Part shown: positions 7,872-52,292 of the stretch, piece after piece
Layout: the number at the start of each line of letters is the position of its first letter
Position numbering within the stretch: the first letter of the stretch is position 1
Source: an uncultured Planctomycetaceae bacterium
Lineage (GTDB): Bacteria; Planctomycetota; Phycisphaerae; SM23-33
Reading direction: 5' to 3'
DNA: 64,000 nucleotides
Assembly: GCA_964401385.1 (NCBI GenBank)
Contig: CAYNYF010000010.1
Coordinates: 1,112-65,111 of the forward strand
The notes under the pieces: model-generated
Told to the model about the DNA's origin: nothing
Seen by the model: the letters and a program-made list of their open reading frames with translations, nothing else
Databases searched by the model: none
Program-made: the position numbers and the translations under genes

Positions 7872-9803
7872 ATGGCTCGCAACATCAAGCTGATCAACGC
7901 GGACGCGCCGGATGCCACCGACATCCAATCGCTGGTGAGCACGCTCACGGCCGGGTGGAGGACCGACCGGGAGAAGATGATCGCCCTGTGGGCCTATATC
8001 GCCCGAAATGCCTTCTACCACTGGTGCGAGGCCCGCGAGAGACCTGAGGGGACGACCGAGCTGGGGATGGTGTTCGATCCGATTGCCGCGTTCAACGTCC
8101 ACGGCACGACGATCTGCTACCAGGTGTCGCACCTGTTGGGAAACCTCGGTGAGCTGGCCGGGATCAAGTGCCGGACCATCGGCGCGCCCGGCCACAGGCT
8201 CATGGAGGCCTACTACGACGGGCAGTGGCATCTGTTCGACGGGCAGTACGACCTGGCCGCGTACTACGTCGCCGACGACGGCGAGACCATCGCCAGCTAC
8301 GAGCAGGTCTGCCGGGCACCGGACAAGTACGTCCGCCATCCCAAGTATCCTTCCCAGCCGTTCTTTCAGTTCGATCGCTGCGGCGGCGAGTTCTGGCCGT
8401 GGGAGACCAGAGAATACGCCATCGAGCATTTTTTCAACCCGGACGTGCCGGCCAAGGCGACGGTGTACAGGTGCAACCTGGTTCGCGGACACAGCATCCA
8501 CCTGGACCTGCGCCGGGGCGAGAGGCTGATTCGCCGCTGGTCCAACGAGGGCAAGTGGTATTGCCCGCCGGAGTTCCGTCAGGTCTGGAAGCGCGACCTG
8601 ACCCAGCGCTGGGTGGACGCCGGACCGCACGATCCGCGGGCGCCGGAGAACACCTACGCCAACGGCGAGCTGATCTATGAGCCGGACTGGCAGGCCGCGG
8701 ACGTGAACTTCCGCGACGGCCTGCACGACGGGCACAACTTCGCCCTCGTCGACGGCGAGGTTCGCCCGGCTTCGGCCGGGGCGTGCCAGGTGGTCTTCCG
8801 CGTGTACAGCCCTTACCTGATCGTCGGCAGGCCCGCCGAACCGCCCGGGCAGGCGGCGTCACAGGATGGCGCCGTCGTTCAAGCGGATTTCTTCCGCAAG
8901 GACGAGACGGCCGCGAATTCCGTCAGCGTTTCGATCGACACCGGCCTGACCTGGCGGCAGGTATGGACCAACGACAAGACCGGGCGCTCAACGGTCCGTC
9001 TGGACCTGACCGAGTTCGTCGAGGGGACGCACGGCTACCTGATCCGGTTCGACCTGACAGGCGGGCGGCCGGAAGACGCCAGCCTGTCCCATCTCCGCCT
9101 GCGGAATTCGCTGTTCTTCTCGCCCGTGCCGCTGCCCGCGGTTCGGCCGGGAGAGAATCGCTTTGTCTTCAGCATGCAGGAAGGCCATGGCGTCCTTTGC
9201 CTTCAGCCCGATCTGGGGGAGGGAGCGGATTTCAGGCGGCATTTCGCCGAACTGAAGAATCTCACGTACGACCCGAAGTTCGTTCGGCACCTCTCGCCCC
9301 GAAAGGGCCGGGGGCACGCCGTGTTGGCCGTCGCCGCTCCGCCGGCTGCGAAAATCGCGCGGATGACGGTGCACGCGTGTTTCGGCGTGGACATCAGCCC
9401 GCACCGGCGCGAGTCCGCCGAGATCCTATACGCTGCGGAGCCGCAGGGGCCGTGGCGGTCGGCGTGGAAGAGTGACTTCCCCGGGCGGAACGAGAAGTGG
9501 CGGTGGGATGAATCGGTGGACATCGTCCTCGACGCCCCGTCCGAGCGATGCTACCTGAAGTTCGTGTTGAACCGCCGCAGGCGCCTGTCCTTGAACATGG
9601 TCCGCCTCTACGCGCACTACCTTCGGCCGAGCCAGCCGCTGCGGCCGGGCGACGTTCGGGTAGTCCATGAATGGTTGGAGGACGGGCAGCGCAAGACGCA
9701 CACCGCCAGCCCCCACCCCGCCGGCGAGGCGTACATCGTTCCGGCGGGCGGCGAGCGGATTCAGAATCTATCGGTGACCATCGACGTGGCCAATGAAAGT
9801 TGA
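7872..9803 (+). CDS. transglutaminase-core + Asp-box protein, paralog 1 (no signal peptide)
   Basis: The track ORF starts at TTG 7767 with a non-hydrophobic 35-aa leader. ATG 7872 (MARNIKL...) is preceded by GAAGGGA. Ordered Cys...His...Asp pattern of the transglutaminase core: HGTTICYQVSHL, APGHRLMEAYYDGQWHLFD. Exact Asp-box SIDTGLTW. Collinear with the ORFs at 34302 and 50292. Confidence 0.8.
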   Translation: MARNIKLINADAPDATDIQSLVSTLTAGWRTDREKMIALWAYIARNAFYHWCEARERPEGTTELGMVFDPIAAFNVHGTTICYQVSHLLGNLGELAGIKCRTIGAPGHRLMEAYYDGQWHLFDGQYDLAAYYVADDGETIASYEQVCRAPDKYVRHPKYPSQPFFQFDRCGGEFWPWETREYAIEHFFNPDVPAKATVYRCNLVRGHSIHLDLRRGERLIRRWSNEGKWYCPPEFRQVWKRDLTQRWVDAGPHDPRAPENTYANGELIYEPDWQAADVNFRDGLHDGHNFALVDGEVRPASAGACQVVFRVYSPYLIVGRPAEPPGQAASQDGAVVQADFFRKDETAANSVSVSIDTGLTWRQVWTNDKTGRSTVRLDLTEFVEGTHGYLIRFDLTGGRPEDASLSHLRLRNSLFFSPVPLPAVRPGENRFVFSMQEGHGVLCLQPDLGEGADFRRHFAELKNLTYDPKFVRHLSPRKGRGHAVLAVAAPPAAKIARMTVHACFGVDISPHRRESAEILYAAEPQGPWRSAWKSDFPGRNEKWRWDESVDIVLDAPSERCYLKFVLNRRRRLSLNMVRLYAHYLRPSQPLRPGDVRVVHEWLEDGQRKTHTASPHPAGEAYIVPAGGERIQNLSVTIDVANES

Positions 9804-10084
9804 ACCGCCGCCATCGGCGCCAATTCCATTCGCCGGCGTGCCGGTGTGCCGATCGGTCCGGCCGGCTGCGTCGGCGAGCCGTCGCCTTGATCGCCGCGGG
9901 CGGCTCGGCCAAATCCTGCCGGGGGGACCCACAAGAGGTAGTTTGGGCTTGCGGCGGGCCGGCGTTCGCCCAACAATCTGCCGGTGATTTGCGGATCGGG
10001 CCTGCCCACTCCCAGCGCGCCGGGACAGGCGGGGCGGGCGCGACAACCCGGCTGGAATGAACCCTCGCTCGGAGGGCCGTTCTT

Positions 10085-16660: not shown

Positions 16661-18361
16661 CTATTGCTCCGGGCCCTGGATCGAGATCTCTCGGCTGCCG
16701 GCGGCGTCATGCTGTTGGCCTTGGGCGTAGACGTTGATGTGAAACTCACCAGCCGGGCAGTCGGCGGGGATGCGGACGCTCCAGGCGGCCTTGCCTTCAG
16801 TGATTCTGACGGAGTTCTCAACGACTACTTTGTTATTGGCGCGGGCGTTGGTGCGAATCATTTCCGCTTCCGCGCCTGGACGGTCTTCCGGCACGGCCGC
16901 GACGGGTCTCAACGTCCTGTCGCGGCGGATCGTCAGCGAAAAGTGGGCGGTGCCGGTCTTGACCGGGCCTGTCATGCGGACCTCGATGGTCTGACCCGGC
17001 CACGCCGCCGCCGGCGCCGACAGCGCGGCCCTCTCGCGCACGACCGGCAGCGAAAGGGCGGGATCGCCCAGCAGGTTGTACAGCATGATCTGGTCGGCCC
17101 GCTGATCCGACAGGGCGGCAAAGCCCAACTGCGTCGCGGCCAGCAGGTCCACCATCGTCCGGAACCCCGTTCTCCGGCCGCGGGCGAACCATTTTTGCAC
17201 TTGCAGGAAGGCCTGACCGACCGTCGGCGGGGGCGCCTCCAGCAGCGCCTCGGTCAGGAACGCGCCGAGGATCGCGTTGGCGTACGGCTGGGAGATGCGG
17301 CTGGAGCCGACGAATATCGCCGGGCCAGCGGGGCTGGCCAGCAATCGCTCGCCGACGGAAGCTTCCGCGCCGTCGAACCGGCCGGTCGAACAGGCCAGGG
17401 CGACCACGATGGTGCGGTGATGGGGAATGCGGATTGCCTTGACCGCGGAGCTGTTGAGGATCGGATACGTCTGGCCTTTCCAGGTGAACCGGTCAAACCC
17501 CTTCTCGCTGCCGTGGCCGATGTAGAACATCAGCGCCGGTCCGGCGTTGAGACGGTCGACCATGTGGTCGCTGAACCGCGACGGGGCGTAGCAGTAGGCC
17601 GAGGCGGGGTTGGCGTAGGACAGGTGGCAGTTCAGGTAGTTCGGCGCGTGGTCGGCCAGCACGATGGAAAAGAATCTTTCCAGAACCGCGTCGATCATGC
17701 GGCCGAAGCCGCCCGGCCCGGCGAAGACGTCGGCCCGGCGGCGCCACTGCCCGGGCGCTTGGCCGCGCTCGCAGGCCAGCGTTTTCCGTACCATCACCCG
17801 CAGGTCGCCCAGCGACCGGGCGGGCAGGCGCCCGACGGCGACGTCCGGAACGCCCGAGCCGGCCGGCGTCGCGTAGAGATAATCGCCGGCGAGGAATTTG
17901 TCAGAGGGCATCTCCGTGGAGTAGAAACGCGCCCGCGTGATCCACGTCGGCAGGTACATCCCCTCGGCGTTTCGCCTGTCGCCCGTGCCCACCAGCAGGA
18001 GAAACTTCGGCCGGGCGGGAGCGGCCGGCAACTTGGCCAGCGAGTGCAGAAAGTCGCGGATCGACTTGGCGCTGGCCCGGCCGTTTCCGAAGGCCTTGTA
18101 GATCGTCTCGGCCGTGGCGATGCGGACGGTCTGGCCGTGGCCGGACCGCCACTTGGCCAGCGGCATCACCTCGGCGACCGCCTTTTGCGGACAAATCAGA
18201 AGGTACGCCGGGACGATGTCCGGCTTCCTCACGTCGGCTAGGACGAGAGAGGCTTTACGCGCGGGCTGCTCGTCGGCCTTCGCGCAAGCCGGAACCGTCA
18301 GGGCGGCGAGGGCCGCCAGCCAAACTTGAGCATGCTTGCGGACCATCAGCAGACTCCGCAC
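16661..18361 (-). CDS. exported peptidase C25 (gingipain-like) family protein
   Basis: GTG 18361 or ATG 18346 start. Signal peptide AQVWLAALAALTVPACA. Clan CD His/Cys dyad context: MFYIGHGSEKGFDRFTW and TIVVALACSTGRFDG. Confidence 0.8.
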   Translation of the reverse strand: MRSLLMVRKHAQVWLAALAALTVPACAKADEQPARKASLVLADVRKPDIVPAYLLICPQKAVAEVMPLAKWRSGHGQTVRIATAETIYKAFGNGRASAKSIRDFLHSLAKLPAAPARPKFLLLVGTGDRRNAEGMYLPTWITRARFYSTEMPSDKFLAGDYLYATPAGSGVPDVAVGRLPARSLGDLRVMVRKTLACERGQAPGQWRRRADVFAGPGGFGRMIDAVLERFFSIVLADHAPNYLNCHLSYANPASAYCYAPSRFSDHMVDRLNAGPALMFYIGHGSEKGFDRFTWKGQTYPILNSSAVKAIRIPHHRTIVVALACSTGRFDGAEASVGERLLASPAGPAIFVGSSRISQPYANAILGAFLTEALLEAPPPTVGQAFLQVQKWFARGRRTGFRTMVDLLAATQLGFAALSDQRADQIMLYNLLGDPALSLPVVRERAALSAPAAAWPGQTIEVRMTGPVKTGTAHFSLTIRRDRTLRPVAAVPEDRPGAEAEMIRTNARANNKVVVENSVRITEGKAAWSVRIPADCPAGEFHINVYAQGQQHDAAGSREISIQGPEQ

Positions 18362-34301: not shown

Positions 34302-36308
34302 ATGACGCGGAAAGCCTGTCTGCGACCTATTATTCTGGCGCTGGTTCTGGCCTGGTCTTGCCCCGCTGGGGCCCGCAACATCAAGCTGGTCAAGCCGGAC
34401 GAGTTCGACGCGACGGACCTGGACTCCCTGGTGAGAACGATCACCCGGGGCTGCAAGAGCGACCGGGAAAAGATGATCGCCCTGTGGGCCTACATTACCC
34501 GCGGCGGCTTCTATCATTGGTGCGAGGCACGCGAGGGGCCCGAGGCCGTCACCGAGTTGGGAGTCGTGTACGATCCGATCGCCGCCTTCAACGTCCACGG
34601 CACGGTGATCTGCTACCAGGTGGCCGACGTGCTGGCGAACCTGGCCGACGCCGCCGGCATGCGAACCCGCACCCGCGGCATCCCCGGGCACAAGCTCATG
34701 GAGGTCTTCTACGACGGCAAGTGGCACCTGTTCGACGCGCAGTACGACTGCGCGTCCTACTTCGTCGCCGACGACGGCAAGACGATCGTCGACCTGAACG
34801 AGGTCTGCCGCGACGCCGCGAAGTACATCCTCAAGCCGGCCCATCCGTCCCGGCCGTTCTATCAGTTCGACCACCTCGGGGGGAAGTTCTGGCCGTGGGA
34901 GTCGAAGGCCTACGTCATCAAGAACTGGTATCACACCGGCGTGCCGGCCAAGGCCCCCGTGTTCACCCCGTACCTCGCTCGCGGCCATACGGTCCACCTG
35001 GACCTGCGGCGGGGTGAAAAGCTCGTCCGCAACTTCACCAACGACGGCAAGTGGTTTTGCTCGGCGGCCATGTACAAGCGATGGAAGCGGGACCGGACCC
35101 AGCGGTGGGTGGACAAGGGCCCGCACGACCCGCGCCGGCCCGGCAACGCGTATGCCAATGGCCTGCTGGTCTACGAGCCGGATTGGCGGGCCAGTGAGCT
35201 GAACTTTCTCGATGGGCTATACGAAGGCAGCAATTTCGCCCTGACCGACGGGAAGGTCCATCCGGCCAGGGCGGGCAGTTGCCGCGTGGTCTTCCGCGTC
35301 CAGAGCCCGTATCTGCTGGCCGGCGACCCCGGCAAACTCACCGTCGACGGCGATTCCCGCGACGGGGCCATCTTCCAGGCCAAATTCTTCCGAAAGGACG
35401 CCAGCGCCGCCAACTCCGTGGCCGTGTCCACCGACAACGGTCTGAGCTGGGCAACCGTCTGGACCAATGACAAGATCGGCGTCCGCACGGTGCGTCTGGA
35501 TCTGACCAATCACGTGGAAGGACGGTATGGCTATCTGATCAAGATCGTGCTTTCCGCCCGCGAGCCGGCCGAGGCCGGCGTGGCCAACATGAAGCTGCGG
35601 AACCGGCTGTTCTTCTCGCCGATTCCACTGCCGGCGGTCCGGCCGGGCAAGAACCGCTTCGCCTTCGGCGTCGAGGAAGGCCACAGCCTGCTTGTCATCC
35701 ATCCCGACCTGTCGGACGCCGAGGGGCACCGGCGGTACTTCAAAGAGCTGAAAGACCTGAGATACAACTCCAACTACGTCCGGCACCTCTCCCCGGCCGG
35801 TGGGGAAGGGCATGCGATCGTGGAAGTTGCCCCGCCCGACGGCACGAAGATTCAGTCCATGACCGTGCACGGATCGTTCGGGGCCGCGAGCGGTGCGGCC
35901 GCGGCCGAGTCGGTGGAGCTGCTTTGCCGGGCAGAAGGCCAGGCAAACTGGAAGTCCGTATGGAAGAGCCGCTTTTCGGAGCGGAACGACAAGTGGCGCT
36001 GGGATGAGTCTGTGGACGTGCGGCTGGACCGTCCGGCCGAGAAGTGCCACCTCAAGTTCCTGCTGAAGCAGCGGCGGTGGATGTCGTTGAACATGGTCCG
36101 GGTCTACGCGCATTGCATTCGGCCCGAGCGACCGCTGCGGCGCGGCAGCGTCAAGATCACCCATGCCTGGCTGGCCGACGGGCGGCCGAAAAGCCGTACC
36201 GTCACGCCCGAGCCGACCGACACCTACACCATTGATGCCCCATCCGAGCACATCCGCAACCAATCCGTGACCATTGAAGTGGCCAATGAACGCGCCGCGG
36301 CGCGATAG
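34302..36308 (+). CDS. transglutaminase-core + Asp-box protein, paralog 2 (signal peptide)
   Basis: ATG 34302 (the track start at 34284 is GTG). Signal peptide ACLRPIILALVLAWSCPAGA followed by RNIKL. HGTVICYQVADV and IPGHKLMEVFYDGKWHLFD form the Cys/His/Asp pattern. Asp-box STDNGLSW. Collinear with 7872 and 50292. Confidence 0.8.
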   Translation: MTRKACLRPIILALVLAWSCPAGARNIKLVKPDEFDATDLDSLVRTITRGCKSDREKMIALWAYITRGGFYHWCEAREGPEAVTELGVVYDPIAAFNVHGTVICYQVADVLANLADAAGMRTRTRGIPGHKLMEVFYDGKWHLFDAQYDCASYFVADDGKTIVDLNEVCRDAAKYILKPAHPSRPFYQFDHLGGKFWPWESKAYVIKNWYHTGVPAKAPVFTPYLARGHTVHLDLRRGEKLVRNFTNDGKWFCSAAMYKRWKRDRTQRWVDKGPHDPRRPGNAYANGLLVYEPDWRASELNFLDGLYEGSNFALTDGKVHPARAGSCRVVFRVQSPYLLAGDPGKLTVDGDSRDGAIFQAKFFRKDASAANSVAVSTDNGLSWATVWTNDKIGVRTVRLDLTNHVEGRYGYLIKIVLSAREPAEAGVANMKLRNRLFFSPIPLPAVRPGKNRFAFGVEEGHSLLVIHPDLSDAEGHRRYFKELKDLRYNSNYVRHLSPAGGEGHAIVEVAPPDGTKIQSMTVHGSFGAASGAAAAESVELLCRAEGQANWKSVWKSRFSERNDKWRWDESVDVRLDRPAEKCHLKFLLKQRRWMSLNMVRVYAHCIRPERPLRRGSVKITHAWLADGRPKSRTVTPEPTDTYTIDAPSEHIRNQSVTIEVANERAAAR

Positions 36309-39157: not shown

Positions 39158-39391
39158 ATGAACGTGTTCGTCTATGTTCTAACACTATTGGCGGTGGGTC
39201 ACGTTGGTGTGATGGCCCTGCTGGTCATCTATCTGTCCCGGGCGGTCAAACATTTGTCGCAGATGGCGGAGCCGATGCAGGCCCTGTGGGAGCAGCAGGA
39301 ACGCTCCGCTTTCTCGGCGACAGCAAAGACTGACGCGACTGCCAAGTCGCAGTGGGCAGAGCAGCCCGAGGAATTGGTAGGCTCCCCATAA
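39158..39391 (+). CDS. small hypothetical single-pass membrane protein (77 aa)
   Basis: ATG is preceded by AGGAGAGCGAA. N-terminal TM segment VFVYVLTLLAVGHVGVMALLVIYL. It is the only plausible ORF in a 1.4-kb gap, and its GC3 is lower than in neighbouring genes. Confidence 0.4.
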   Translation: MNVFVYVLTLLAVGHVGVMALLVIYLSRAVKHLSQMAEPMQALWEQQERSAFSATAKTDATAKSQWAEQPEELVGSP

Positions 39392-39998: not shown

Positions 39999-42900
39999 AT
40001 GCATCGGCCGACAGCGATGTTCCTTCTAGCCACCGTGATCGCCGCCACTGCCCCTCTCGCCCTGGCCCAGGCCGAGGCCAAGCAGGCCTTCGAGGCGGGC
40101 AAGACGGCTTTTGAGGCGGGCGAACTCGAAAAGGCCAGGCAGCTTCTTGAAAAGGCATCGCAGACGGACGTCCGCAATCCGGAAGTGTTCCTGTGGCTGG
40201 GCAAGGCGTGCTACCAGCTCGGGCAGGTGGACCGGGCGATTGCCGCCTGGTCCAGGACGCTCCGGTTGGCGCCCGAGCAGCCGTACGCGACCAAGATGCT
40301 CAAGGCCCTGCGCGGGCAAGTGGCCGACGCCGACACGCGGATCCGCCTCATCGAACTGATGCTGGAAGAGGCGCCCTTCGCGGAGCAGTTGGCCAGGACG
40401 GCGCTGGTTCAATGCGACAAGCTGCTGGCGGAAAAGGCCCTGACCGACGCCCAACGTGCCGGAGTGATGGCGCTGAAGGCGAGGGCCCAGATCCAGCGGG
40501 CCGACGGGCCCGGGGCGATCTCGACCGTACGCGAGTTGCTGGCGCGGTTCCCCAAGGAGGCGGACGCGGCCACGACGACGCTGCTTCTGGGTCTGGCCAA
40601 GACGCGCTTCGGCGGGGAGGCTGTGGCCGAGGGGGTGGCGCTGCTGAAGAAAGTGATCGCCGACCACGCGGGCACGCCCGCGGCCGCCGAGGCCGAATAC
40701 GAGCTGATCGCATTCCAACTCCGCCAGAAGCCGGATCCGGCCGTCGCGGCGTCCCTGGAAAAGTGGATCGCCGGCAACGCCGGACATCCCAAGGCCCGTC
40801 AGGCCCGCCGCCGGCTGGTGGAGGCGTATCTGGCCGTCACGCGGCAGGTGCATCCGCGCACGCCGGAGGCCGCGCTAAGCCGGACCGACGTTGCGGCCCT
40901 GGCCGCGGCGGCGCAGCTCTACCAGCAGATCGTCCAGGCGAAGGAGGCGCGGTCACTGACAGACCACATCATCGCCCATCTCCAGCAGCAGTATGTCAGC
41001 TCGAAGGCATACGCAGCGGCCATCGCCGGGGCGGAGACGCTCCTGAAGGCGGCGCTTCCCGGCTCCAGCCGGACCGCGGTGCTGCGCGCCCTGGCCAGGT
41101 ACAGGGTCGAGCACGCGTCCAAGGTGCTGACGGATCAGGCCAAGGCCGGCAAGCTTCCGGCCGGGGCGATGCCGAAGGTGCTGGCCGACGTGCTGGCCGT
41201 CTACGCGACCATCAACAAGGAATTCCCCGCCCAGCCGGCCTGGTCCGATCAGGCCACACTGGCCGAACGGGTGCGAAATCTGGCGGGGCTTGTGCCCTGG
41301 CCGGTGAAGGTGACCGGCCCCAAGCCGCTGCACACCTGGGCGGTGGCGGTGGCCCTACCGGTGATCGAGGCCAACGCCGACGCCGCAGCCGTCCGGCGCG
41401 CGGCCGTCACCGTCACCGCCGTCGTCGATGCGTACGTACGCTGCAAGGGCCAGGCGGCCAAGAAGGTGGCGCTGGCGATCAGCACGCAGTTGGTGGAGGC
41501 GCTCTGGCCGGAGGAGCCGACCTGGGCGGCCTCCATGCTGAAGCAGATCGACCTGCTGAGCGCGTGCGCGGCCAACCTGTTCCAGGAGAACATCAAGGCC
41601 GGGCGGGCCGAGGACAACGCCAAGCTCAACGAATTCCAGAACCGTCTGCTGGCGGCCATGTCCAAGCTCGCCGCCCGCCAGGCTGAGCACGCGCCGGCGG
41701 TCCTGAGCAGGCTCCAGAGCCACCTCGAGCCGTGGCTGCGACACGGCCACTACGCCCTGGGCGAGGCAGCCTACGAACAGCTCGCCGGGTCCCTGCCGAA
41801 GCCGCAGCAGCAGCAGGCGAAACTGGCCGTGGCGACGCTGTGGATCCGGCAGGTCACGACCGAGCACAATCGACTGCTGTCGGCCGGGCTGACCGTGCCG
41901 CGGAAGCTGGATCCGATCTTTGCCAAGGCCCTGGGACGATGCTATGCCCTCCAGGCCGGTCTGGTTGAAGATGACCCATTCCTCTCGCAGGTGCGCTCGG
42001 TCTGGGACAGCATCATCAACCACTACACGCGGCTGGAGTATTTCGACATCGCGGAGCAGGCCGTCAAGGCCAAGCCCGCGGCGCCGGCGGTCGCCCCCGC
42101 CGACGCCTACGCCCAACTGAAGCTCGCCGTCCTGCACGATCAGGAGGCGCGGCGGGAGCTGGGCGAGCTGCTCAAGCAATACAAGGGCGACGAGAAGATC
42201 ACGCTGACGCCGGCGTTCAAGACCGCCATCGCCGAGTACACCAAGTTCATTTCCGATCGCCCGTCCAGCCCGCTGGTCGCCAACGCCGTCGCCGGCGTGT
42301 TCAACATCGCCCGGCTCTTCGAGCAGCATAAGGCGTACGACGTGGCGGTCGGCGTCTACCGGGACCTGGCGGCCTTCGCCGAGAAGGTCAAGGCGCTTAC
42401 ACAGTCGGCGCCGGGCGCGCCGAGCGCAGCCGAGCGCGCGAAGTTCGCCGTCGCCGGCGCCCTGTACGCCAAGGCTCGTGCGGCTCTGAGCAAGGCGCTG
42501 GCCGAGAAGGACCCCAAGGCCGCCCCGCCGGACAAGATCAGCGCCGAGTTCGCCGCCGCCATCGCCGCCTACCAGGGCTTCATCAAGGCCAACCCCGACA
42601 GCGGCCTTCTGGGGCAAGCCGTCCGGCAGATCCTCTCGGCGGCGCTGGAGTACGCCAGGATCGACGCCTGGGACGTCGCCGACGGCATCTACGCCGACCT
42701 GCTGGCCAGCGGGCTGCCGCTGCGCCGCCCCGAGCGGGTCCGGTTTGCCCGCGGCGTCTGCCAGATGGGCAAGGTCATGCCCGACCACGCCAGGAAGGTC
42801 CTCCAGGCCCTGACCACCGCCCCGCCCGTCACGCGGCGGCCCGGCGGGGCTGACGATGTGGCGGCGCTGGCCGAACCGAGTAAGCCCCTCTCGGCACTTG

Positions 42901-45401
42901 AGGGAACCAGCGGGCGGCTCAGGCAGCCGACGCCGACCTTCAAAGCCCCCAGCCTCGATTTGGCATGGTCGGAGGACCGGTCTGACGCCGACGGGAGGAG
43001 GGGGAGGGGGGGAGGAGGAAGGACTGAACTGGAGAAGTTGGATTACCTGGCCCTGACGGCCATCCGCAAGGACCAGCAGCGGCGCTCGGTGCAGGTGGCC
43101 CAGCTCCGCGACGAGTCCGTCCGGTATCGGGCGGTGGCACAGGCGTCCGCACAAGGCCAGAAAAAGCAGCTTGTCGTTCCCAGGCCGGTGCTGTCGGAAG
43201 CGGAGATCGCCCGCCAGGAAAAGGCCCTGGCCGCGGCGTACAAGATCTTCCAGATGATCCGGAAGGACTATGCCGCCACGCCCACGGCCGAGCAGGCCCG
43301 CGGCGAGATCATGATCATGATCCAGCACTGGCGGACCATCGGCCAGTGGCAGCGCGGGGCGGCGCTGGGCGAGCAGTACCTCGCCGACAACCCCACCGAT
43401 CGGGAGCTGCCACAGCTTCGGCTGGGAGTCGCCCGCGACAACCTGGCCTGGGCGGCCCAGCCTGTCCAGAAGCAGCCGTCCACGCAGGCGATGCTGGCCG
43501 AGGTCGCCCAGCGCTTCGACAAGGCCCGCGGGCAGCTTGCCGGCATCGTGAAGGACTTCCCCAAGGACAAGTCCGTCGTCCACCAGGCCCAGTGGGACAT
43601 CGCCAACAGCTTCCTGACGCAGGCCCGCGTCGTCGACGCCTTCAGCGCCACGCTGGCGCGCGGGCAGTACGTCCGGGCCGCCACGGAGTTGCAGCAGGTG
43701 GCCGCCAGGTATCACGACCACCCCAACATCGCACAGATTCCGCAGATGCTCTGGAACATCGCCCAGGAGCTTGCCGGGCGGGGCTACTACGACGAGGCCA
43801 TCAACGTCTGGAGCGAACTGACCATCCACTACCCGACGCACCCGCAGGCCCAGCAGGCGGCCTACCGGATCGCCCAGACCTATCAGAACAACCTGAAGCG
43901 ACCGCTGCTGGCGGCCGAGGCGTACCTGGAGCTGAACTTCACCCGCGGCGGCGACCTGAGCATCCAGAACCAGATCTTCAGCATCGGCGTGAGCCTGAAG
44001 AACGAAAAGCGCTGGGTGGAGGCCATGCACGTGCTGGAGAGCTTCGTGGACGGCTTCCCGCGCAATCCCAGCGCCGGTAAGGCGCTGACCATGGTCGGGC
44101 AGATCCACCAGACCAACGAGGCCTGGGACGACGCCATCAAGGCGTACCGCCGCGTGATCGACGAGTTCCCCGCCGGCACCTGGGTCCGCGACGCCAAGTG
44201 GTCCATCGCCGAATGCACCATCAACCTGAGCCAGTGGCGCGGGGCGATGGCCGCGTATCGGTCCTACCTGGCGACGTACGCCAAGGACGGCAAGGCGGCC
44301 GAGGCCAACCGCCGCATCGGCATCCTGAAGGACCTGGCCCGCTACCAGGCGCTGGTGGACGAGGAGGGCCAGCGCAAGGCCTTCGACGCCCAGTACCAGA
44401 TCGCCGAGATCCTCCTGACGAAGCTGTCCAACCCGGTCAAGGCGATCATCGAGTACCGCAAGGTGACCGACAGGTGGCCGCAGAGCCACCTTGCCGACGA
44501 CGCCATGTTCAAGACCGGCAGGACCTACCTGTCCATGGGGCAGACCGCCAAGGCCCGCGAGGCCCTGCTGGCGGTGGCTCTCAAGTACCCCACCAGCCCG
44601 CTGGCCGACGACGCCGTCTACATGGTCGGTCAGAGCTATGAAAACGAAGCACAGCGGCTGGCGGGCGTGACCCGCGAAAAGACGATCAAGAAGGCGAGAA
44701 TGTGGGCTCAGAAAGACGCCTATTCCAAGTTCACGGCCGCCCGCCGCGATCTCCGCAGAATCAACGAGCTGGAGATCGCGGACTTGAAGAAGGGTGGCAA
44801 GCTGAAGGCTGCCGAGATGGCCCAGGCCCGCCAGTCCGTGCAGGAAAGCCAGTTCGCCATGGCCAACGTCAGCCTGCTGGGAGAGCAGGCCCGCCAGCAG
44901 GTCGAGACGCTCACGGCCAGCGAGCTTGCCGACCGGCAGGACAAGATCAACGCTGCCTTGCGAAGGGCGGTGGGGGCGTATCAGCAGGCGTCGAAGGTTC
45001 CCGCGGCGGACAAGGCCGACGAGTCGCTGCTGCGAATGGCCGTGATCTTCGCCGAAAAGCTGAAGGACTCGGACGCGGCCATGAAGACGTATCTCGAGAT
45101 CGTCCGTCAGTTCAGCGGCACGGCCGTGGCCGAGGACGCCAGTTGGCGCATCGCCCAGTACCACGAGCGGCAGGGCAAGTACGCCGAGGCCATCACCGCC
45201 CACGAGGCCTTCCTGAGAAACTACCGCCGCAGCCCCCGGGCCGGGGCGGCCCAGTTCGCCATCGCCGAGAACTACGAGCACCTGGGCCAGTGGGTCAAGG
45301 CCATGGACGCCTACACCAACTACATCAACAACTTCCCGTCCGGGCCGCTGGTTCAGAAGGCGACCGAACAGATCAACTGGATCAAGACGTATCGGCTATA
45401 G
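39999..45401 (+). CDS. giant (1800 aa) secreted TPR/BamD-YbgF-like repeat protein
   Basis: ATG is preceded by GGAAAGGAGG. Signal peptide MFLLATVIAATAPLALAQA. Helical-repeat composition throughout. The C-terminal third has clear YbgF/BamD-type TPR units (e.g. PTSPLADDAVYMVGQSYE, SGTAVAEDASWRIAQYHE, PRAGAAQFAIAENYEHLGQW). Confidence 0.8.
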   Translation: MHRPTAMFLLATVIAATAPLALAQAEAKQAFEAGKTAFEAGELEKARQLLEKASQTDVRNPEVFLWLGKACYQLGQVDRAIAAWSRTLRLAPEQPYATKMLKALRGQVADADTRIRLIELMLEEAPFAEQLARTALVQCDKLLAEKALTDAQRAGVMALKARAQIQRADGPGAISTVRELLARFPKEADAATTTLLLGLAKTRFGGEAVAEGVALLKKVIADHAGTPAAAEAEYELIAFQLRQKPDPAVAASLEKWIAGNAGHPKARQARRRLVEAYLAVTRQVHPRTPEAALSRTDVAALAAAAQLYQQIVQAKEARSLTDHIIAHLQQQYVSSKAYAAAIAGAETLLKAALPGSSRTAVLRALARYRVEHASKVLTDQAKAGKLPAGAMPKVLADVLAVYATINKEFPAQPAWSDQATLAERVRNLAGLVPWPVKVTGPKPLHTWAVAVALPVIEANADAAAVRRAAVTVTAVVDAYVRCKGQAAKKVALAISTQLVEALWPEEPTWAASMLKQIDLLSACAANLFQENIKAGRAEDNAKLNEFQNRLLAAMSKLAARQAEHAPAVLSRLQSHLEPWLRHGHYALGEAAYEQLAGSLPKPQQQQAKLAVATLWIRQVTTEHNRLLSAGLTVPRKLDPIFAKALGRCYALQAGLVEDDPFLSQVRSVWDSIINHYTRLEYFDIAEQAVKAKPAAPAVAPADAYAQLKLAVLHDQEARRELGELLKQYKGDEKITLTPAFKTAIAEYTKFISDRPSSPLVANAVAGVFNIARLFEQHKAYDVAVGVYRDLAAFAEKVKALTQSAPGAPSAAERAKFAVAGALYAKARAALSKALAEKDPKAAPPDKISAEFAAAIAAYQGFIKANPDSGLLGQAVRQILSAALEYARIDAWDVADGIYADLLASGLPLRRPERVRFARGVCQMGKVMPDHARKVLQALTTAPPVTRRPGGADDVAALAEPSKPLSALEGTSGRLRQPTPTFKAPSLDLAWSEDRSDADGRRGRGGGGRTELEKLDYLALTAIRKDQQRRSVQVAQLRDESVRYRAVAQASAQGQKKQLVVPRPVLSEAEIARQEKALAAAYKIFQMIRKDYAATPTAEQARGEIMIMIQHWRTIGQWQRGAALGEQYLADNPTDRELPQLRLGVARDNLAWAAQPVQKQPSTQAMLAEVAQRFDKARGQLAGIVKDFPKDKSVVHQAQWDIANSFLTQARVVDAFSATLARGQYVRAATELQQVAARYHDHPNIAQIPQMLWNIAQELAGRGYYDEAINVWSELTIHYPTHPQAQQAAYRIAQTYQNNLKRPLLAAEAYLELNFTRGGDLSIQNQIFSIGVSLKNEKRWVEAMHVLESFVDGFPRNPSAGKALTMVGQIHQTNEAWDDAIKAYRRVIDEFPAGTWVRDAKWSIAECTINLSQWRGAMAAYRSYLATYAKDGKAAEANRRIGILKDLARYQALVDEEGQRKAFDAQYQIAEILLTKLSNPVKAIIEYRKVTDRWPQSHLADDAMFKTGRTYLSMGQTAKAREALLAVALKYPTSPLADDAVYMVGQSYENEAQRLAGVTREKTIKKARMWAQKDAYSKFTAARRDLRRINELEIADLKKGGKLKAAEMAQARQSVQESQFAMANVSLLGEQARQQVETLTASELADRQDKINAALRRAVGAYQQASKVPAADKADESLLRMAVIFAEKLKDSDAAMKTYLEIVRQFSGTAVAEDASWRIAQYHERQGKYAEAITAHEAFLRNYRRSPRAGAAQFAIAENYEHLGQWVKAMDAYTNYINNFPSGPLVQKATEQINWIKTYRL

Positions 45402-48449: not shown

Positions 48450-48522
<73 letters not shown>

Positions 48523-49836: not shown

Positions 49837-50007
49837 GCCACGTACTTCGGCGATGCCAACCTGGACGGCAAGGTGGATGGTGGCGACTACACCATCTGGG
49901 CCGACAACTACGGCTCGGGCGAGGGCGGCGCGCCAATACCTGAACCCGCGACGCTGGCGCTACTGGCGCTCGGCGGGCTGGTGTTGGTGCGGCGACAGCG
50001 TAAGTGA
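49837..50007 (+). pseudogene. C-terminal fragment of a dockerin-like / PEP-CTERM protein (5' part missing)
   Basis: ATYFGDANLDGKVDGGDYTIWADNYGSGEGGAPIPEPATLALLALGGLVLVRRQRK* parallels the tail of the 52365..53489 protein. The upstream part of track ORF 49531..50007 is antisense to the activase remnant and has no signal peptide. Confidence 0.5.
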
Positions 50008-50068: not shown

Positions 50069-50291
50069 GCGGCCGGCTGTGAGCGGAATGTCAACATGCG
50101 TAATGATTTCAGCCCTCTGCCCGCACATCGCTTGCTTCCCGGAAAGCCGAAGCTGAGAATGCCATCAGACGATCGGCGGGCAACGACCGTCAGATGAATC
50201 GATCACTGAGGCCAGGCGAGGGGCGCGGGCGAAGCCCCGTTCGGGATCGCTGGCCCTGCCATGCGGCTCGCCACGGGCCGTCCGCGCTTGT

Positions 50292-52292
50292 TCATTCAGC
50301 CTTCTCGTTGGCCACCTGAATGATGACTGCCTTGTTGACGACGTTTCCTGCGGCGGTGACCGTGTAGGTCTGGCCCTTCAGGTTCGGCACGATGGTGTAG
50401 CTCCTGCCCTTGCCGTCCTGGAGCCAGATGTGGGTGACCTTGACGCTGCCGGCGGGCAGCGGCGGCTCCGGCCGCAGGTAGTGGGCGTAAACCTTGCAGC
50501 CGTTCAATGACATGTGGACGCTCCTGCGGAGATGCCACTTGATGTAGCACGTGTCCGCCGGTCGCGGCAGCATGACGTCCGCGGTCTTTTCCCTGCGCCA
50601 GTGAGCGCTGGTGCGGAACTTCCCCTTCCAGACCACGCGCCACTTCCAGGACGGATCGTAGTCGGCCCGACAGAGCACACGGGCCCTGTCGCCGGTCGTG
50701 CTGCGCGCCCCGAACATCGAATCCACGGTCAACCAGTGGATCTGCGCTCCCGGGGGGGCATCCACCTTCATGATCGCGTAGCCCTTGACGCTGGGGTAGA
50801 GGTGGTTCGTGAAGTGGGTGTTGTAGTTGAGGTTATTTATCTCGTGGAAGAATCGCTGATAGCCAGGATTGTCGGTCATGTCCGGCCGGACAATGAGGAC
50901 GTTCTCCTTTTCCTTGCAGGTGAACTTGAAGCGGTTGGCCCCCGGCTTGATCGCCGGCAGCGGCACCGGCGAACAGAATAGGTAATTCGTCAGCTTCAGG
51001 TTCTCCAGGAAAGCCTCGGCCGGCTCATCTCCCAGCAGACGCACCTTGATCAGATAGTGGTATCGACCCTCCACCTCGTTCGTCAGGTCAAGTCTAAGGT
51101 GGGTGCTGCCGGTCTGATCGTTGATCCAGACGGTATTCCAGGTAAGCCCGTTGTCGGTGGATATGGCCACGGAGTTGACCGCATCAATGCTCTCGCGGTA
51201 GAAATCGGCCTCGAAGAGCGCCCCGCCGTACGAGTCGCCGCCGACGTCCAGCCTGCCGGGCTTGCCGGCAATCAGATAGGGGCTGATCACGCGGAAGATC
51301 ACGTGGCACTCGCCGAGCCCGGCCGGTCGGACTTTCCCGTCGGCGAGGACGTAATTCGTCCCGTCGTACAGCCCGTCGAGGAAGTTCCTCTCGTGCGCCT
51401 TCCAGTTCGGCTTGTAGACCAATACGCTGTTGGCGTATCGGTTCTTGGGATTGTAGGGGCTGTGCGGCCCCTGGACGACGTGATTGCGTCCGCCGAAGCC
51501 AGGACTGTAGCCGCCCCACGTGCTGAACAGCTCCGGCGGGCAGTACCACCGGCCCAGGTTGCCAAACCAGCGGATGAGCTGTTCTCCCCGCCGCAGATGA
51601 AATTGGATCGTGTGCCCCCAGGAGATCCGCGTGGCGTAAACCTCGGACTGGCTCTGGTAGAAGTGATCGATGCAATACCGCTTCGACTCCCACGGCACGA
51701 ACAGATAGGCGTAGCCGCCCTGATCAAACTGGTAGAAAGGGTCGGAGGGATTGGCCTGATTGAGGATGTACTTGTTGGGATTGGTGCAGATCTGAGAGTA
51801 GCTGAGGATGCTGCTGCCGTCATCACCAAGGCAATACGAGGCGGGATTCTGCTGGGCGTCGAGCAGGTGCCAGGTGTCGCCGAACCTGAGCTCCGAGACC
51901 ATGTGTCCGGGAAGCCCCAGGCTGTGCGATTCGATCCCCGCAACCTCGGCCATCGTGCCCAGGATGTCGATCACCTGGAAGCAGATGACCGTACCGTGGA
52001 CGTTGAAGTTGCGCACCGGGTCCAGGACGATCCCGTTTTCGTTGGTCGCCTCGGGATTCTCCCTGGCCGTGCACCAGTGGTAGTAGGGGCGGCGCGTGAT
52101 GTAGGCCCACAGCGCGACGGCCTTTTCCTTGTCGGTGGTGCAGCCCCGGGTCACCGTAGCCACCAGCGACCGGATGTCGGTGGCGTCCACCTCGTCCGGT
52201 TTGATCAGCTTGAGGTTGCGTGCCCACGAGGGCAACGCCCAACCCCAGATCAGCAGCCCGGCAAGAATCGCTTTCGGCACTCTCGCTGTCAT
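50292..52292 (-). CDS. transglutaminase-core + Asp-box protein, paralog 3 (signal peptide)
   Basis: ATG is preceded by GAGGAG. Signal peptide KAILAGLLIWGWALPSWA followed by RNLKL. HGTVICFQVIDI and LPGHMVSELRFGDTWHLLD. Asp-box STDNGLTW. Collinear with 7872 and 34302. Confidence 0.8.
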   Translation of the reverse strand: MTARVPKAILAGLLIWGWALPSWARNLKLIKPDEVDATDIRSLVATVTRGCTTDKEKAVALWAYITRRPYYHWCTARENPEATNENGIVLDPVRNFNVHGTVICFQVIDILGTMAEVAGIESHSLGLPGHMVSELRFGDTWHLLDAQQNPASYCLGDDGSSILSYSQICTNPNKYILNQANPSDPFYQFDQGGYAYLFVPWESKRYCIDHFYQSQSEVYATRISWGHTIQFHLRRGEQLIRWFGNLGRWYCPPELFSTWGGYSPGFGGRNHVVQGPHSPYNPKNRYANSVLVYKPNWKAHERNFLDGLYDGTNYVLADGKVRPAGLGECHVIFRVISPYLIAGKPGRLDVGGDSYGGALFEADFYRESIDAVNSVAISTDNGLTWNTVWINDQTGSTHLRLDLTNEVEGRYHYLIKVRLLGDEPAEAFLENLKLTNYLFCSPVPLPAIKPGANRFKFTCKEKENVLIVRPDMTDNPGYQRFFHEINNLNYNTHFTNHLYPSVKGYAIMKVDAPPGAQIHWLTVDSMFGARSTTGDRARVLCRADYDPSWKWRVVWKGKFRTSAHWRREKTADVMLPRPADTCYIKWHLRRSVHMSLNGCKVYAHYLRPEPPLPAGSVKVTHIWLQDGKGRSYTIVPNLKGQTYTVTAAGNVVNKAVIIQVANEKAE

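What the first reader, a model, noticed from the sequence alone, without database searches (positions are those of the whole stretch)
7872..52292. Three full-length paralogs of an unnamed ~643-668 aa transglutaminase-core + Asp-box protein within 45 kb
ORFs 7872-9803 (+), 34302-36308 (+) and 50292-52292 (-) are collinear end to end. By eye they are identical at roughly half or more of positions; I did not compute this. Shared blocks include ARN[IL]KL, DATD, [DE][RK]EK..ALWAYI.R, YHWC.ARE.PE, NVHGT.IC[YF]QV, PGH....E....G.WHL[FL]D, RGH[ST][IV].[LF].LRRGE.L[IV]R, Y[EK]P[DN]W, S.D.GL[TS]W..VW.ND, VRLDLT..VEG..GYLI, LF.SP[VI]PLPA[VI][RK]PG.NRF, SLN..[RK][VL]YAH, and a terminal V.I.VANE. The first ~150 aa show the ordered Cys...His...Asp pattern of the transglutaminase-like core; that fold also houses PNGases and BTLCP proteases. 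A single exact Asp-box lies in the middle. The remaining ~450 aa match nothing I can name. Three diverged copies in one small region suggest an expanding lineage-specific family acting on the envelope. Two copies sit in same-strand runs with sugar-nucleotide or glycan enzymes, and the third sits behind a PEP-CTERM protein. This is my best candidate for an undescribed function, possibly glycan/glycopeptide or protein cross-link processing, but that is inference.
Basis: partly seen in the sequence, partly recalled or inferred. Interest (0 to 1): 0.7.

Follow-up and report, generated by a model that had tools for sequence, protein, structure and literature searches.

The report
Three uncharacterised transglutaminase-fold enzyme paralogs
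The window really does encode three diverged full-length copies of a protein with a transglutaminase-type cysteine active site and sugar-binding-like beta-sandwich domains; it belongs to a large, widespread family that nobody has characterised, so its fold is known but its substrate is not.

Summary
Observation confirmed. ORFs 7872-9803(+), 34302-36308(+) and 50292-52292(-) are intact, collinear paralogs (A-B 59 %, A-C 46-48 %, B-C 49 % identity). A profile search finds exactly three copies in the window.

The N-terminal ~255 residues are a transglutaminase-like (papain-type) core. Cys104/His130/Asp145 (copy B numbering) are invariant in 43 family members and 97-98 % conserved in 136 distant representatives. 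The remaining ~390 residues are not unmatchable: a pLDDT 92.8 model shows jelly-roll beta-sandwich domains, one carrying the single Asp-box.

No Pfam or NCBIfam model covers the family. No solved structure is close, and every named homolog is "hypothetical".

The family is not lineage-specific or recently expanding. Each copy has closer orthologs in other MAGs (Planctomycetota, Gemmatimonadota, Latescibacterota, Glassbacteria). The clade sits in a superfamily of about 2,900 clusters at 50 % identity, often fused to CBM-type domains.

Only one window neighbourhood is conserved: a PEP-CTERM/dockerin-like protein lies directly upstream of every C-type member (6 of 6 loci). Other clades pair with polysaccharide-lyase-like proteins.

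Best reading: cysteine acyl-enzyme hydrolases or transamidases targeted to a glycan-bearing extracellular polymer. B and C have signal peptides; A has none. The substrate is unknown.

The parts
7872..9803 (+). Copy A, 643 aa, leaderless. Transglutaminase-like domain about 7872-8654; beta-sandwich region 8655-9800.
   Evidence: groups with the leaderless P0022 (63 % identity) in the tree
8115..8240 (+). Copy A predicted triad codons: Cys82 (8115-8117), His108 (8193-8195), Asp123 (8238-8240)
   Evidence: invariant columns
8931..8954 (+). Copy A Asp-box SIDTGLTW
34302..36308 (+). Copy B, 668 aa. Signal-peptide-like residues 1-23; transglutaminase-like domain about residues 24-283 (34371-35150); beta-sandwich region residues 284-668 (35151-36305).
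   Evidence: (AF2 pLDDT 92.8)
34611..34736 (+). Copy B predicted triad codons: Cys104 (34611-34613), His130 (34689-34691), Asp145 (34734-34736)
   Evidence: invariant in 43 of 43 family members; 97-98 % conserved in 136 distant representatives; aligned to the Cys and His...Asp of PDB 4xz7
35427..35450 (+). Copy B Asp-box STDNGLSW, placed in the first beta-sandwich domain from the secondary-structure string
   Evidence: S376, G380 and W383 conserved 88-90 % in distant representatives
50292..52292 (-). Copy C, 666 aa. Signal-peptide-like residues 1-23; transglutaminase-like domain 51438-52292; beta-sandwich region 50295-51437.
51858..51983 (-). Copy C predicted triad codons: Cys104 (51981-51983), His130 (51903-51905), Asp145 (51858-51860)
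51138..51161 (-). Copy C Asp-box STDNGLTW
52365..53489 (-). Conserved upstream partner of copy C, 374 aa. Signal peptide, two modules that look like PPC domains (by eye; no Pfam hit), two dockerin-like repeats (by eye; no Pfam hit in this protein, though other dockerin/PEP-CTERM proteins match this region) and a PEP-CTERM tail. Its stop lies 72 nt before copy C's start, on the same strand.
   Evidence: orthologs at 48-52 % identity directly upstream of every C-type member (L004, L011, L014, L015, L035)

Best explanation
A, B and C are three old paralogs of an uncharacterised family of multidomain cysteine enzymes.

Catalytic part. The N-terminal ~255 residues form a transglutaminase-like (papain-type) core. 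Cys104, activated by His130 and Asp145, would attack an amide, peptide or ester carbonyl and form a thioester acyl-enzyme. Water would then resolve it (hydrolase, amidase or peptidase outcome) or an amine would (transamidase outcome). Further near-invariant residues are Asp91, Asn97, Glu134, His142, His229 and Arg243; I guess that they shape the pocket, which is not shown.

Targeting part. The C-terminal ~390 residues are jelly-roll beta-sandwich modules, one with an Asp-box. I infer that they hold the enzyme on a glycan-bearing or cell-surface polymer.

Location. B and C have signal peptides and would act outside the cytoplasm. In the C clade the enzyme is genetically coupled to a PEP-CTERM-anchored surface protein, which is either its substrate or its docking partner. 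A has no signal peptide, so it would act in the cytoplasm or be exported by another route.

Shown: paralogy, fold, conservation of the triad, domain make-up, conserved gene pairs. Inferred: that catalysis occurs, the chemistry, the role of the beta-sandwich domains, and the glycan or surface substrate.
For: - Paralogy and collinearity.
- Fold of the N-terminal domain. Pfam Transglut_core is matched by 35 of 43 members at E<=0.1, best 6.9e-6. A profile of the N-terminal domain matches PDB 4xz7, deposited as 'a TGase', at E 9.7e-5, with the Cys and the H-x(11)-WH-x2-D motif aligned. Foldseek on the AF2 model of this domain (pLDDT 88.6) returns only transglutaminase-fold proteins at the top, with probability about 1.0: 9crn TglA, 4xz7, 3isr, PNGases 3esw and 2f4o, 3kd4, NAT, TgpA.
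- Triad conservation. It is invariant in 43 of 43 members down to 25 % identity. In 136 distant representatives Cys is kept in 97 %, His in 97 % and Asp in 98 %.
- C-terminal part. The full-length model has pLDDT 92.8 and pTM 0.92, and the C-terminal part is all-beta. Foldseek hits are tandem jelly-roll proteins: reelin repeats (E 1e-8), PHM, PNGase F-II, neuropilin b1b2, SGBP-B and CBM-bearing glycoside hydrolases.
- Glycan link. Among 55 distant superfamily members, extra domains include F5/8 type C (9), CBM6 (2), CBM35 (2), GDSL esterase (2), dockerin (2), a T9SS tail (2) and GH115_C (1). One close member is fused to a BNR_2 sialidase-like domain. Same-strand downstream partners are Hepar_II_III_C or PcRGLX-like proteins of about 900 aa in several loci. 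Sulfatase and beta-helix/dockerin neighbours also occur.
- Export. Signal peptides are present in B, C and most homologs.
- PEP-CTERM partner: found in 6 of 6 C-type loci and in none of the A-, B- or G-type loci.
Against: - No activity, substrate or expression data exist for any member.
- The window proteins score below Pfam's Transglut_core threshold (13-14.5 bits against 23).
- Foldseek E-values for the core are modest (7e-3 to 5e-2) and only about 115-135 of 257 residues align.
- The 3-D geometry of the triad could not be measured.
- Whole-model Foldseek TM-scores for the beta-sandwich part are low (about 0.15). 'CBM-like' is therefore a fold-level statement, not evidence of glycan binding.
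- Gene neighbourhoods are mostly not conserved. No Pfam family recurs in more than 4 of 96 neighbours of close members, or 3 of 74 neighbours of distant members.
- Copy A's lack of a signal peptide does not fit a purely extracellular role.
- Transglutaminase-fold proteins can be non-catalytic (menin appears among the Foldseek hits).
Confidence: 0.55

Rival explanations
1. True transglutaminase: the enzyme cross-links proteins outside the cell through Gln-Lys isopeptide bonds. An example would be fixing the PEP-CTERM/dockerin-like partner, or other surface proteins, into a matrix or S-layer-like coat.
For: The closest solved relatives by sequence profile and by fold are streptococcal proteins deposited as a TGase and as TglA (4xz7 at E 9.7e-5, 9crn). 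The C clade is strictly paired with a surface-anchored PEP-CTERM protein.
Against: Identity to 4xz7 is only 16-21 % over the core, and the same search returns proteases, PNGases and N-acetyltransferases with equal probability. Most clades have no protein partner; some pair with lyase-like enzymes and many distant members carry CBM fusions, which suits degradation better than cross-linking. The leaderless copy A would have no surface substrate.
Confidence: 0.15
2. Glycoamidase or deacylase acting on glycoconjugates. This would be PNGase-like cleavage of a glycan-peptide amide, or removal of acyl or amino-acid substituents from a polysaccharide, working as an accessory enzyme for the adjacent lyase-like proteins.
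For: PNGases are among the fold hits for the core (3esw, 2f4o). Superfamily members are fused to CBM6, CBM35, F5/8 type C, GDSL esterase and GH115_C domains. There is a BNR_2 fusion. Hepar_II_III_C, PcRGLX-like, sulfatase and beta-helix neighbours occur.
Against: There is no Zn-binding CxxC pair; Cys104 is the only invariant cysteine. The PNGase matches are no better than those to proteases or TGases. The lyase-like partners occur in a minority of loci and are absent from the window. No transglutaminase-fold enzyme acting on polysaccharide substituents is known (my knowledge).
Confidence: 0.2
3. Cysteine endopeptidase that trims or releases surface proteins. By analogy with LapG (recalled from my knowledge), it would cleave the PEP-CTERM/dockerin-like partner or other anchored proteins.
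For: Fold hits include proteins deposited as putative cysteine proteases (3isr, 3kd4). The gene pair with a surface-anchored protein is strict in the C clade. I read the partner's two modules as PPC-like by eye; such modules are often removed proteolytically (my knowledge).
Against: There is no hit to the BTLCP/LapG model even at E<=1. Only one clade has the partner. The analogy rests on memory and was not tested here.
Confidence: 0.15
4. Non-catalytic binding or scaffold protein that merely keeps a transglutaminase-like fold.
For: Non-enzymatic transglutaminase-fold proteins such as menin appear among the Foldseek hits. No activity data exist.
Against: Cys, His and Asp are 97-98 % conserved across representatives that share only about 20-30 % identity, and other pocket-candidate residues are 83-96 % conserved. 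This is the pattern expected of an active site.
Confidence: 0.05

Closest known systems
Streptococcal surface transglutaminase-like proteins (PDB 4xz7 'a TGase'; S. pyogenes TglA, 9crn)
   Same: They share the transglutaminase-like core. They are the best and only PDB sequence-profile hit (E 9.7e-5) and the top Foldseek hits. The catalytic Cys and the H-x(11)-WH-x2-D motif align. They are extracytoplasmic (my recollection for 4xz7).
   Different: Identity is only 16-21 % over about 125 residues. The regions outside the core differ, and the ~390-residue jelly-roll part has no counterpart. The organisms are Gram-positive pathogens.
Pfam Transglut_core (PF01841) superfamily in general
   Same: Ordered Cys-His-Asp on a papain-like alpha/beta core. 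35 of 43 family members match at E<=0.1, and some precomputed hits are listed.
   Different: The three window proteins score 13-14.5 bits or not at all, against a threshold of 23. About 130 further residues of the N-terminal domain and the whole C-terminal half are not covered by any model.
Cytoplasmic peptide:N-glycanase (Png1/NGLY1; PDB 3esw, 2f4o)
   Same: Transglutaminase-fold core among the Foldseek hits (E 1e-2 to 3e-2). Acts on a glycan-linked amide, which would suit the glycan-related context.
   Different: No Zn-binding CxxC pairs. 12-14 % identity and rmsd 9-10 A. PNGase is eukaryotic and cytosolic, with different accessory domains.
LapG / BTLCP periplasmic transglutaminase-like cysteine proteases (recalled from my knowledge)
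   Same: An extracytoplasmic transglutaminase-like Cys-His-Asp enzyme functionally paired with a surface-anchored protein. This is an analogy for the C clade only.
   Different: No match to the BTLCP Pfam model at E<=1. BTLCPs are single-domain proteins of about 200 aa, whereas this family has about 640 aa with beta-sandwich domains.
Reelin repeats and CBM-type jelly-roll modules (PDB 6a48, 3a7q, 5b4x; neuropilin b1b2; SGBP-B 7kwb; Xyn30D CBM 4qaw)
   Same: Tandem jelly-roll beta-sandwiches. Reelin structures are the top whole-model Foldseek hits, at E 8.5e-9 to 1.4e-7. Reelin subrepeats also carry a single Asp-box in a beta-hairpin (my knowledge).
   Different: TM-scores are only 0.12-0.16 and identity 6-12 %. 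There are no EGF modules, and no ligand is known.
Sialidase / BNR beta-propellers
   Same: The Asp-box motif S-x-D-x-G-x-x-W.
   Different: One Asp-box rather than four or five. It sits in what the secondary-structure string and the Foldseek hits indicate is a beta-sandwich, not a propeller. The sequence match to sialidase 7lbu is limited to the motif (E 6.4).

Membership tests
Transglutaminase-like superfamily (papain-type fold, Pfam PF01841) | alpha/beta papain-like core fold | tested here: met
   The AF2 model of B residues 24-280 has pLDDT 88.6. The top Foldseek PDB hits are all transglutaminase-fold proteins with probability 0.93-1.0, though with modest E-values (7e-3 to 5e-2) over 115-135 aligned residues.
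Transglutaminase-like superfamily (papain-type fold, Pfam PF01841) | Ordered, conserved Cys...His...Asp triad in the canonical sequence positions | tested here: met
   Cys104, His130 and Asp145 are invariant in 43 of 43 members and 97-98 % conserved in 136 distant representatives. They align to the Cys and the His...Asp of 4xz7 and to Pfam profile positions 2-107.
Transglutaminase-like superfamily (papain-type fold, Pfam PF01841) | Triad residues within hydrogen-bonding geometry in 3-D | not testable with these tools
Transglutaminase-like superfamily (papain-type fold, Pfam PF01841) | Score above Pfam's gathering threshold (23 bits) | tested here: not met
   A scores 14.5 bits, B 13.4 bits and C has no hit. 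At family level 35 of 43 members match at E<=0.1, best 6.9e-6.
Peptide:N-glycanase (PNGase / Rad4 transglutaminase-like) | Zn-binding pair of CxxC motifs flanking the core | tested here: not met
   None of the three proteins has a CxxC motif, and only Cys104 is invariant.
BTLCP / LapG-type cysteine proteases (Pfam PF06035) | Match to the family model; single-domain protein of about 200 aa | tested here: not met
   No PF06035 hit at E<=1. The proteins are 643-668 aa with a large all-beta C-terminal region.
Sialidase / BNR-repeat beta-propeller | Several Asp-boxes spaced on propeller blades | tested here: not met
   One Asp-box per protein. The model's C-terminal part is all-beta and matches tandem beta-sandwich proteins. 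The BNR Pfam hit is sub-threshold (13.9 bits against 27).
Carbohydrate-binding modules (CBM6/32/35-type jelly rolls) | Match to a CBM family model or demonstrated glycan binding | tested here: not met
   The core ~640 residues give no CBM, F5/8 type C or other Pfam hit. CBM domains occur only as additional fusions in distant members. Fold resemblance is low (TM about 0.15). Binding cannot be tested here.
PEP-CTERM/exosortase cargo | C-terminal PEP-CTERM sorting signal on the protein itself | tested here: not met
   A, B and C end in VANE plus 1-5 further residues, with no PEP motif or transmembrane tail. The signal is on the upstream partner (52365-53489), where the Pfam PEP-CTERM hit is sub-threshold (E 0.0058, 17.1 bits against 20.7) and the motif VPEPGG...RKKTAR is seen by eye.

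The most novel reading that the evidence does not exclude
This superfamily is a new class of carbohydrate-active enzyme: a transglutaminase-fold cysteine hydrolase that works on glycoconjugates. Examples would be cleaving glycan-peptide or glycan-amino-acid amide links, or removing acyl substituents from sulfated or acidic polysaccharides, as an accessory to lyase-like enzymes. In one clade the enzyme would be tethered or directed by a PEP-CTERM surface protein. It comprises about 2,900 clusters at 50 % identity, with no curated model and no characterised member.
Probability: 0.18. Interest if true: 0.7.

Novelty: new variant of a known kind. Interest (0 to 1): 0.42.

Why it matters
If the family is catalytically active on glycan-bearing substrates, it would add a cysteine-based transglutaminase-fold chemistry to the polysaccharide-degrading toolkits of Planctomycetota, Gemmatimonadota, Latescibacterota and related uncultured groups. 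These bacteria matter for carbon turnover in sediments and soils. The family is large (2,934 representatives at E<=1e-3) yet invisible to Pfam and NCBIfam, so a single biochemical characterisation would annotate thousands of 'hypothetical' proteins. The strict pairing of one clade with a PEP-CTERM protein also gives a concrete, testable handle on what happens to exosortase cargo at the cell surface, which is still poorly understood. If it turns out to be one more secreted protease or cross-linker, the result is ordinary.

Tried and rejected
- **Curated models.** Pfam and NCBIfam scans of the three proteins gave only sub-threshold Transglut_core and BNR hits, plus a spurious GspM hit.
- **PDB sequence search with the full-length profile.** It returned only an Asp-box-level match to sialidase 7lbu, E 6.4.
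- **Whole-model Foldseek.** It was dominated by low-TM jelly-roll matches and did not see the N-terminal domain, so I modelled that domain separately.
- **PNGase reading.** Rejected as membership: no CxxC motifs.
- **BTLCP reading.** Rejected as membership: no model hit.
- **Sialidase reading.** Rejected: a single Asp-box in an all-beta region that matches beta-sandwich proteins, not propellers.
- **Recent lineage-specific expansion.** Rejected by the neighbour-joining tree and nearest-homolog identities.
- **Operon link of B with GlmS, the NTP-transferase/GHMP kinase fusion and DUF6785.** Conserved only in 93-97 % identical contigs L021 and L031.
- **Operon link of A with GT4, ATP-grasp and methyltransferase genes.** Not found in any of about 100 related loci, apart from one 41-residue chance-level match.
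- **Neighbour census of 96 + 74 flanking proteins.** No strongly conserved operon.
- **Search for lyase-like partners or the short paralog in the window.** None found.
- **Frameshifted signal peptide upstream of A.** None found.
- **Literature.** Searches for DUF6785, transglutaminase-like with PEP-CTERM, with Phycisphaerae, and with polysaccharide utilisation, and for TglA, found nothing on this family. The search for SsTGase found three papers that mention the term, none about this family.
- **Names.** The cluster look-up of ten distant representatives returned only 'hypothetical protein'.
- **Promoter and terminator scans.** Nothing above shuffle expectation, except one sigma-70-like site upstream of A.

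Full report
**1. Observation**

Their third-position GC is about 0.85, as for other real genes of this 67 % GC window.

A MAFFT alignment is collinear from the mature N-terminus ARN[IL]KL to the terminal VANE. Identity is 59 % for A-B and 48 % for A-C. BLASTP gives 58.7 % (A-B), 46.2 % (A-C) and 49.5 % (B-C). HMM searches of every window ORF of at least 80 aa with three family profiles find these three genes and no fourth copy.

B and C have 23-residue signal-peptide-like leaders. A starts Met-ARNIKL, has an in-frame stop at 7764-7766 and has no hydrophobic segment in any upstream frame. A sigma-70-like site lies at 7767-7796; this is a consensus match only. A's nearest relative, P0022, is also leaderless.

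**2. What the protein is**

*Curated models.* Pfam gives only sub-threshold hits: Transglut_core at 13-14.5 bits against a cut-off of 23 for A and B, and BNR for C. NCBIfam gives nothing meaningful.

*Close homologs.* A database search found about 50 full-length homologs at 42-72 % identity. Where named, all are called 'hypothetical'. All come from metagenomes or MAGs of Planctomycetota/Phycisphaerae, Gemmatimonadota, Latescibacterota and Glassbacteria.

*Conserved residues.* In a 43-sequence alignment reaching down to 25 % identity, the invariant residues of the N-terminal part are G87, D91, P92, N97, G100, C104, G119, H130, E134, W141, H142, D145, G228, H229 and R243, in B numbering.

*Transglutaminase-like core.* Four lines of evidence agree:
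- 35 of the 43 members touch Pfam Transglut_core at E<=0.1, best 6.9e-6.
- A profile of the N-terminal domain alone hits one PDB sequence, 4xz7 ('Crystal structure of a TGase'), at E 9.7e-5. The Cys and the H-x(11)-WH-x2-D segment are aligned.
- An AlphaFold2 model of B residues 24-280 (pLDDT 88.6) was searched against the PDB. The top hits are transglutaminase-fold proteins only, at probability about 1.0: TglA 9crn, 4xz7, the putative cysteine proteases 3isr and 3kd4, yeast and mouse PNGase, arylamine N-acetyltransferases, menin and TgpA. E-values are modest (7e-3 to 5e-2) and 115-135 residues align.
- The triad is conserved across the whole superfamily (section 3).

The transglutaminase-like core is therefore supported. 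No single sub-family of that fold stands out.

*C-terminal part.* The full-length model is very confident (pLDDT 92.8, pTM 0.92). Everything after about residue 284 is all-beta. Whole-model Foldseek finds tandem jelly-roll proteins: reelin repeats at E 8.5e-9 to 1.4e-7, peptidylglycine hydroxylating monooxygenase, PNGase F-II, neuropilin b1b2, a Bacteroides surface glycan-binding protein and CBM-bearing glycoside hydrolases. TM-scores are only 0.10-0.16. The '450 aa that match nothing' are thus beta-sandwich modules of the general kind used for ligand binding. From the secondary-structure string, the Asp-box sits in the first of them.

**3. How big and how old the family is**

A profile search of 1.84 billion representatives (one per 50 % identity cluster) returns:

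| E-value cut-off | Representatives |
|---|---|
| <=1e-3 | 2,934 |
| <=1e-10 | 1,398 |
| <=1e-30 | 357 |

Many of these are collinear over profile positions ~6-664. The window's own clade accounts for only three representatives. A metagenome scan likewise found 397 encoding stretches.

Conservation in the 136 distant representatives that cover the core (129 for the Asp-box columns):

| Residue(s) | Conserved |
|---|---|
| Cys104 | 97 % |
| His130 | 97 % |
| Asp145 | 98 % |
| Asp91 | 96 % |
| Asn97, Glu134 | 90 % |
| His142 | 86 % |
| His229 | 83 % |
| Arg243 | 85 % |
| Asp-box Ser, Gly, Trp | 88-90 % |

This is the signature of an active site under selection.

Fifty-five distant members were scanned against Pfam. 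No model covers the core. Extra domains include F5/8 type C (9), HEAT_2 (7), CBM6 (2), CBM35 (2), GDSL esterase (2), dockerin (2), T9SS tail (2), beta-helix (2) and GH115_C (1). Ten representatives looked up by cluster are all unnamed or 'hypothetical'.

A neighbour-joining tree shows that A, B and C belong to different sub-clades:
- A groups with P0022 (63 % identity).
- B groups with P0002 and P0003 (72 %).
- C groups with P0026 (81 %), P0025 and P0028.

The three copies are therefore old paralogs retained together, not a recent local expansion. Four other MAGs also carry two copies.

**4. Surroundings**

The window's gene map was built from Pfam scans.

*Copy A.* It is flanked by a divergent clostripain-like C11 peptidase. 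Downstream on the same strand lie GT4, sugar-transfer ATP-grasp and methyltransferase genes.

*Copy B.* It follows an NTP-transferase/GHMP-kinase fusion and GlmS, and precedes a DUF6785/DUF6784 membrane protein.

*Conservation of these neighbours.* B's neighbours recur only in contigs that are 93-97 % identical to the window (L021, L031). A's neighbours recur in none of the roughly 100 related loci, apart from one 41-residue chance-level match. I give these neighbours no functional weight.

*Copy C.* The 374-aa protein encoded 72 nt upstream (52365-53489) has the following parts:
- a signal peptide;
- two modules that look like PPC domains by eye (no Pfam hit);
- two dockerin-like repeats (by eye; no Pfam hit in this protein, though other dockerin/PEP-CTERM proteins match this region);
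- a PEP-CTERM tail (sub-threshold Pfam hit, E 0.0058, plus the motif by eye).

Orthologs at 48-52 % identity lie directly upstream of every family member that is closest to C: L004, L011, L014, L015 and L035. With the window that makes 6 of 6 independent loci. None lies next to A-, B- or G-type members.

*Other clade-specific pairs:*
- A ~510-aa 'short' paralog lies directly upstream of B-type members in L006, L008, L018, L029 and L040. It has the same Cys/His/Glu/Trp-His/Asp/Arg residues.
- A ~900-aa Hepar_II_III_C protein lies directly downstream in L005 and L006.
- A ~880-aa PcRGLX-like protein lies directly downstream of the low-GC clade in L012, L013, L033 and L038.

*Further context.* Sulfatases and dockerin/beta-helix proteins flank other members. 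One member is fused to a BNR_2 sialidase-like domain.

*Census.* A census of 96 and 74 flanking proteins shows no universal operon. The most recurrent families are Beta_helix, PcRGLX-like, dockerin, MFS and sulfatase, each in only 2-4 loci.

**5. Mechanism**

I commit to the following, with confidence 0.55. These are cysteine acyl-enzyme catalysts. Cys104 is activated by His130 and Asp145 and attacks an amide, peptide or ester carbonyl. Water or an amine resolves the thioester. The beta-sandwich modules position the enzyme on a glycan-bearing or cell-surface polymer. B and C work outside the cytoplasm; A does not, or it uses another export route.

- **Shown:** fold, triad conservation, domain make-up, signal peptides, conserved gene pairs.
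- **Inferred:** that catalysis occurs, the chemistry, the role of the beta-sandwich domains and the substrate class.

Within this frame I cannot separate the sub-hypotheses with the tools available:
- a glycoamidase or deacylase acting on glycoconjugates (0.2);
- a surface-protein peptidase, by analogy with LapG (0.15; the analogy comes from memory);
- a true cross-linking transglutaminase (0.15);
- a non-catalytic scaffold (0.05), which is unlikely given the conservation.

**6. Comparison with known families**

The family works like a transglutaminase-fold enzyme. At the level of fold and triad it is a member of that superfamily. It fails Pfam's own threshold for PF01841, and the triad geometry could not be measured.

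It is not a member of the following families:
- PNGase: no CxxC motif, and only Cys104 is invariant.
- BTLCP/LapG: no model hit.
- Sialidase: one Asp-box, in an all-beta region that matches beta-sandwich proteins.
- A CBM family: no model hit, although distant relatives carry CBMs as additional domains.

The closest solved relative is the streptococcal TGase 4xz7 with TglA 9crn, at 16-21 % identity over the core only.

**7. Novelty and verdict**

The fold is known. The family and its architecture are not described in Pfam-A (2025 copy), in NCBIfam 20.0, among PDB sequences, or in the searchable literature. The architecture is a transglutaminase core, a ~130-residue extension, and jelly-roll modules with one Asp-box.

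I rate it a new variant of a known kind. Interest is moderate (0.42). It is a large, conserved, evidently catalytic but unannotated family with a glycan-related flavour and one clean gene pair to test. Nothing about it is yet mechanistically surprising.

The most novel reading still open is a new transglutaminase-fold class of carbohydrate-active enzyme. I give it a probability of about 0.18.

Noticed in passing
window 7764-7872 and copy A (7872-9803): Copy A has no signal peptide, unlike B, C and most homologs. An in-frame stop lies at 7764-7766, no hydrophobic stretch appears in any upstream frame, and a sigma-70-like site lies at 7767-7796. Its nearest relative P0022 (L005) is also leaderless, so there may be a cytoplasmic sub-clade.
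   Followed up: partly
window 49849-50007 (+): An orphan coding fragment encodes one dockerin-like repeat plus a PEP-CTERM tail (GDANLDGKVDGGDYTIWADNYG...PIPEPATLALLALGGLVLVRRQRK*). It has no credible N-terminal part in frame. It is probably the remnant of a PEP-CTERM gene, convergent with copy C.
   Followed up: partly
L006:722-2263, L008:51-1556, L018:7041-8672, L029, L040: A ~510-aa 'short' paralog has the same transglutaminase core residues and a first beta-sandwich, and only ~25 % identity. It lies directly upstream of B-type family members in five other loci and is absent from the window.
   Followed up: partly
L005:12031-14808, L006:4425-7115, L012:7190-9808, L013:10094-12733, L033, L038: Proteins of ~880-930 aa resembling polysaccharide lyases (Hepar_II_III_C or PcRGLX-like) lie directly downstream of family members on the same strand. 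Some carry dockerin-like or PEP-CTERM tails. The pairing is clade-specific.
   Followed up: partly
P0029 (L004:2485-5649): A 1,054-aa family member is fused at its C-terminus to a BNR_2 (sialidase-like) domain. It is preceded by the PEP-CTERM partner.
   Followed up: no
window 36499-38610 (+): A 703-aa DUF6785 + DUF6784 protein lies 190 nt downstream of copy B. A DUF6785 protein also flanks one distant superfamily member. No literature was found on this DUF.
   Followed up: partly
window 4041-7475 (-) and 16661-18361 (-): Two large cysteine peptidases are present. One is a 1,144-aa clostripain-like C11 protein with Ig-like/CARDB domains, divergent from copy A. The other is a C25 gingipain-like protein next to a DUF6655 protein and a 1,103-aa GNAT/DUF4350 protein.
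   Followed up: no
window 54089-57474 (-): A glycyl-radical enzyme (PFL-like, 824 aa) is followed by a radical-SAM/ferredoxin activase. The long activase ORF overlaps the enzyme gene by about 640 nt, so its true start is probably near 54990.
   Followed up: no
window 38611-39998: A stretch of about 1.4 kb has no convincing ORF in the one frame translated or by the GC3 test, and no Rfam match. It lies upstream of a 1,800-aa TPR protein (39999-45401).
   Followed up: no
window 48450-48522 (-) and 57473-57546 (+): tRNA-Lys(CTT) and tRNA-Arg(CCT). The latter starts 1-2 nt from the annotated start of the glycyl-radical enzyme ORF on the opposite strand.
   Followed up: no
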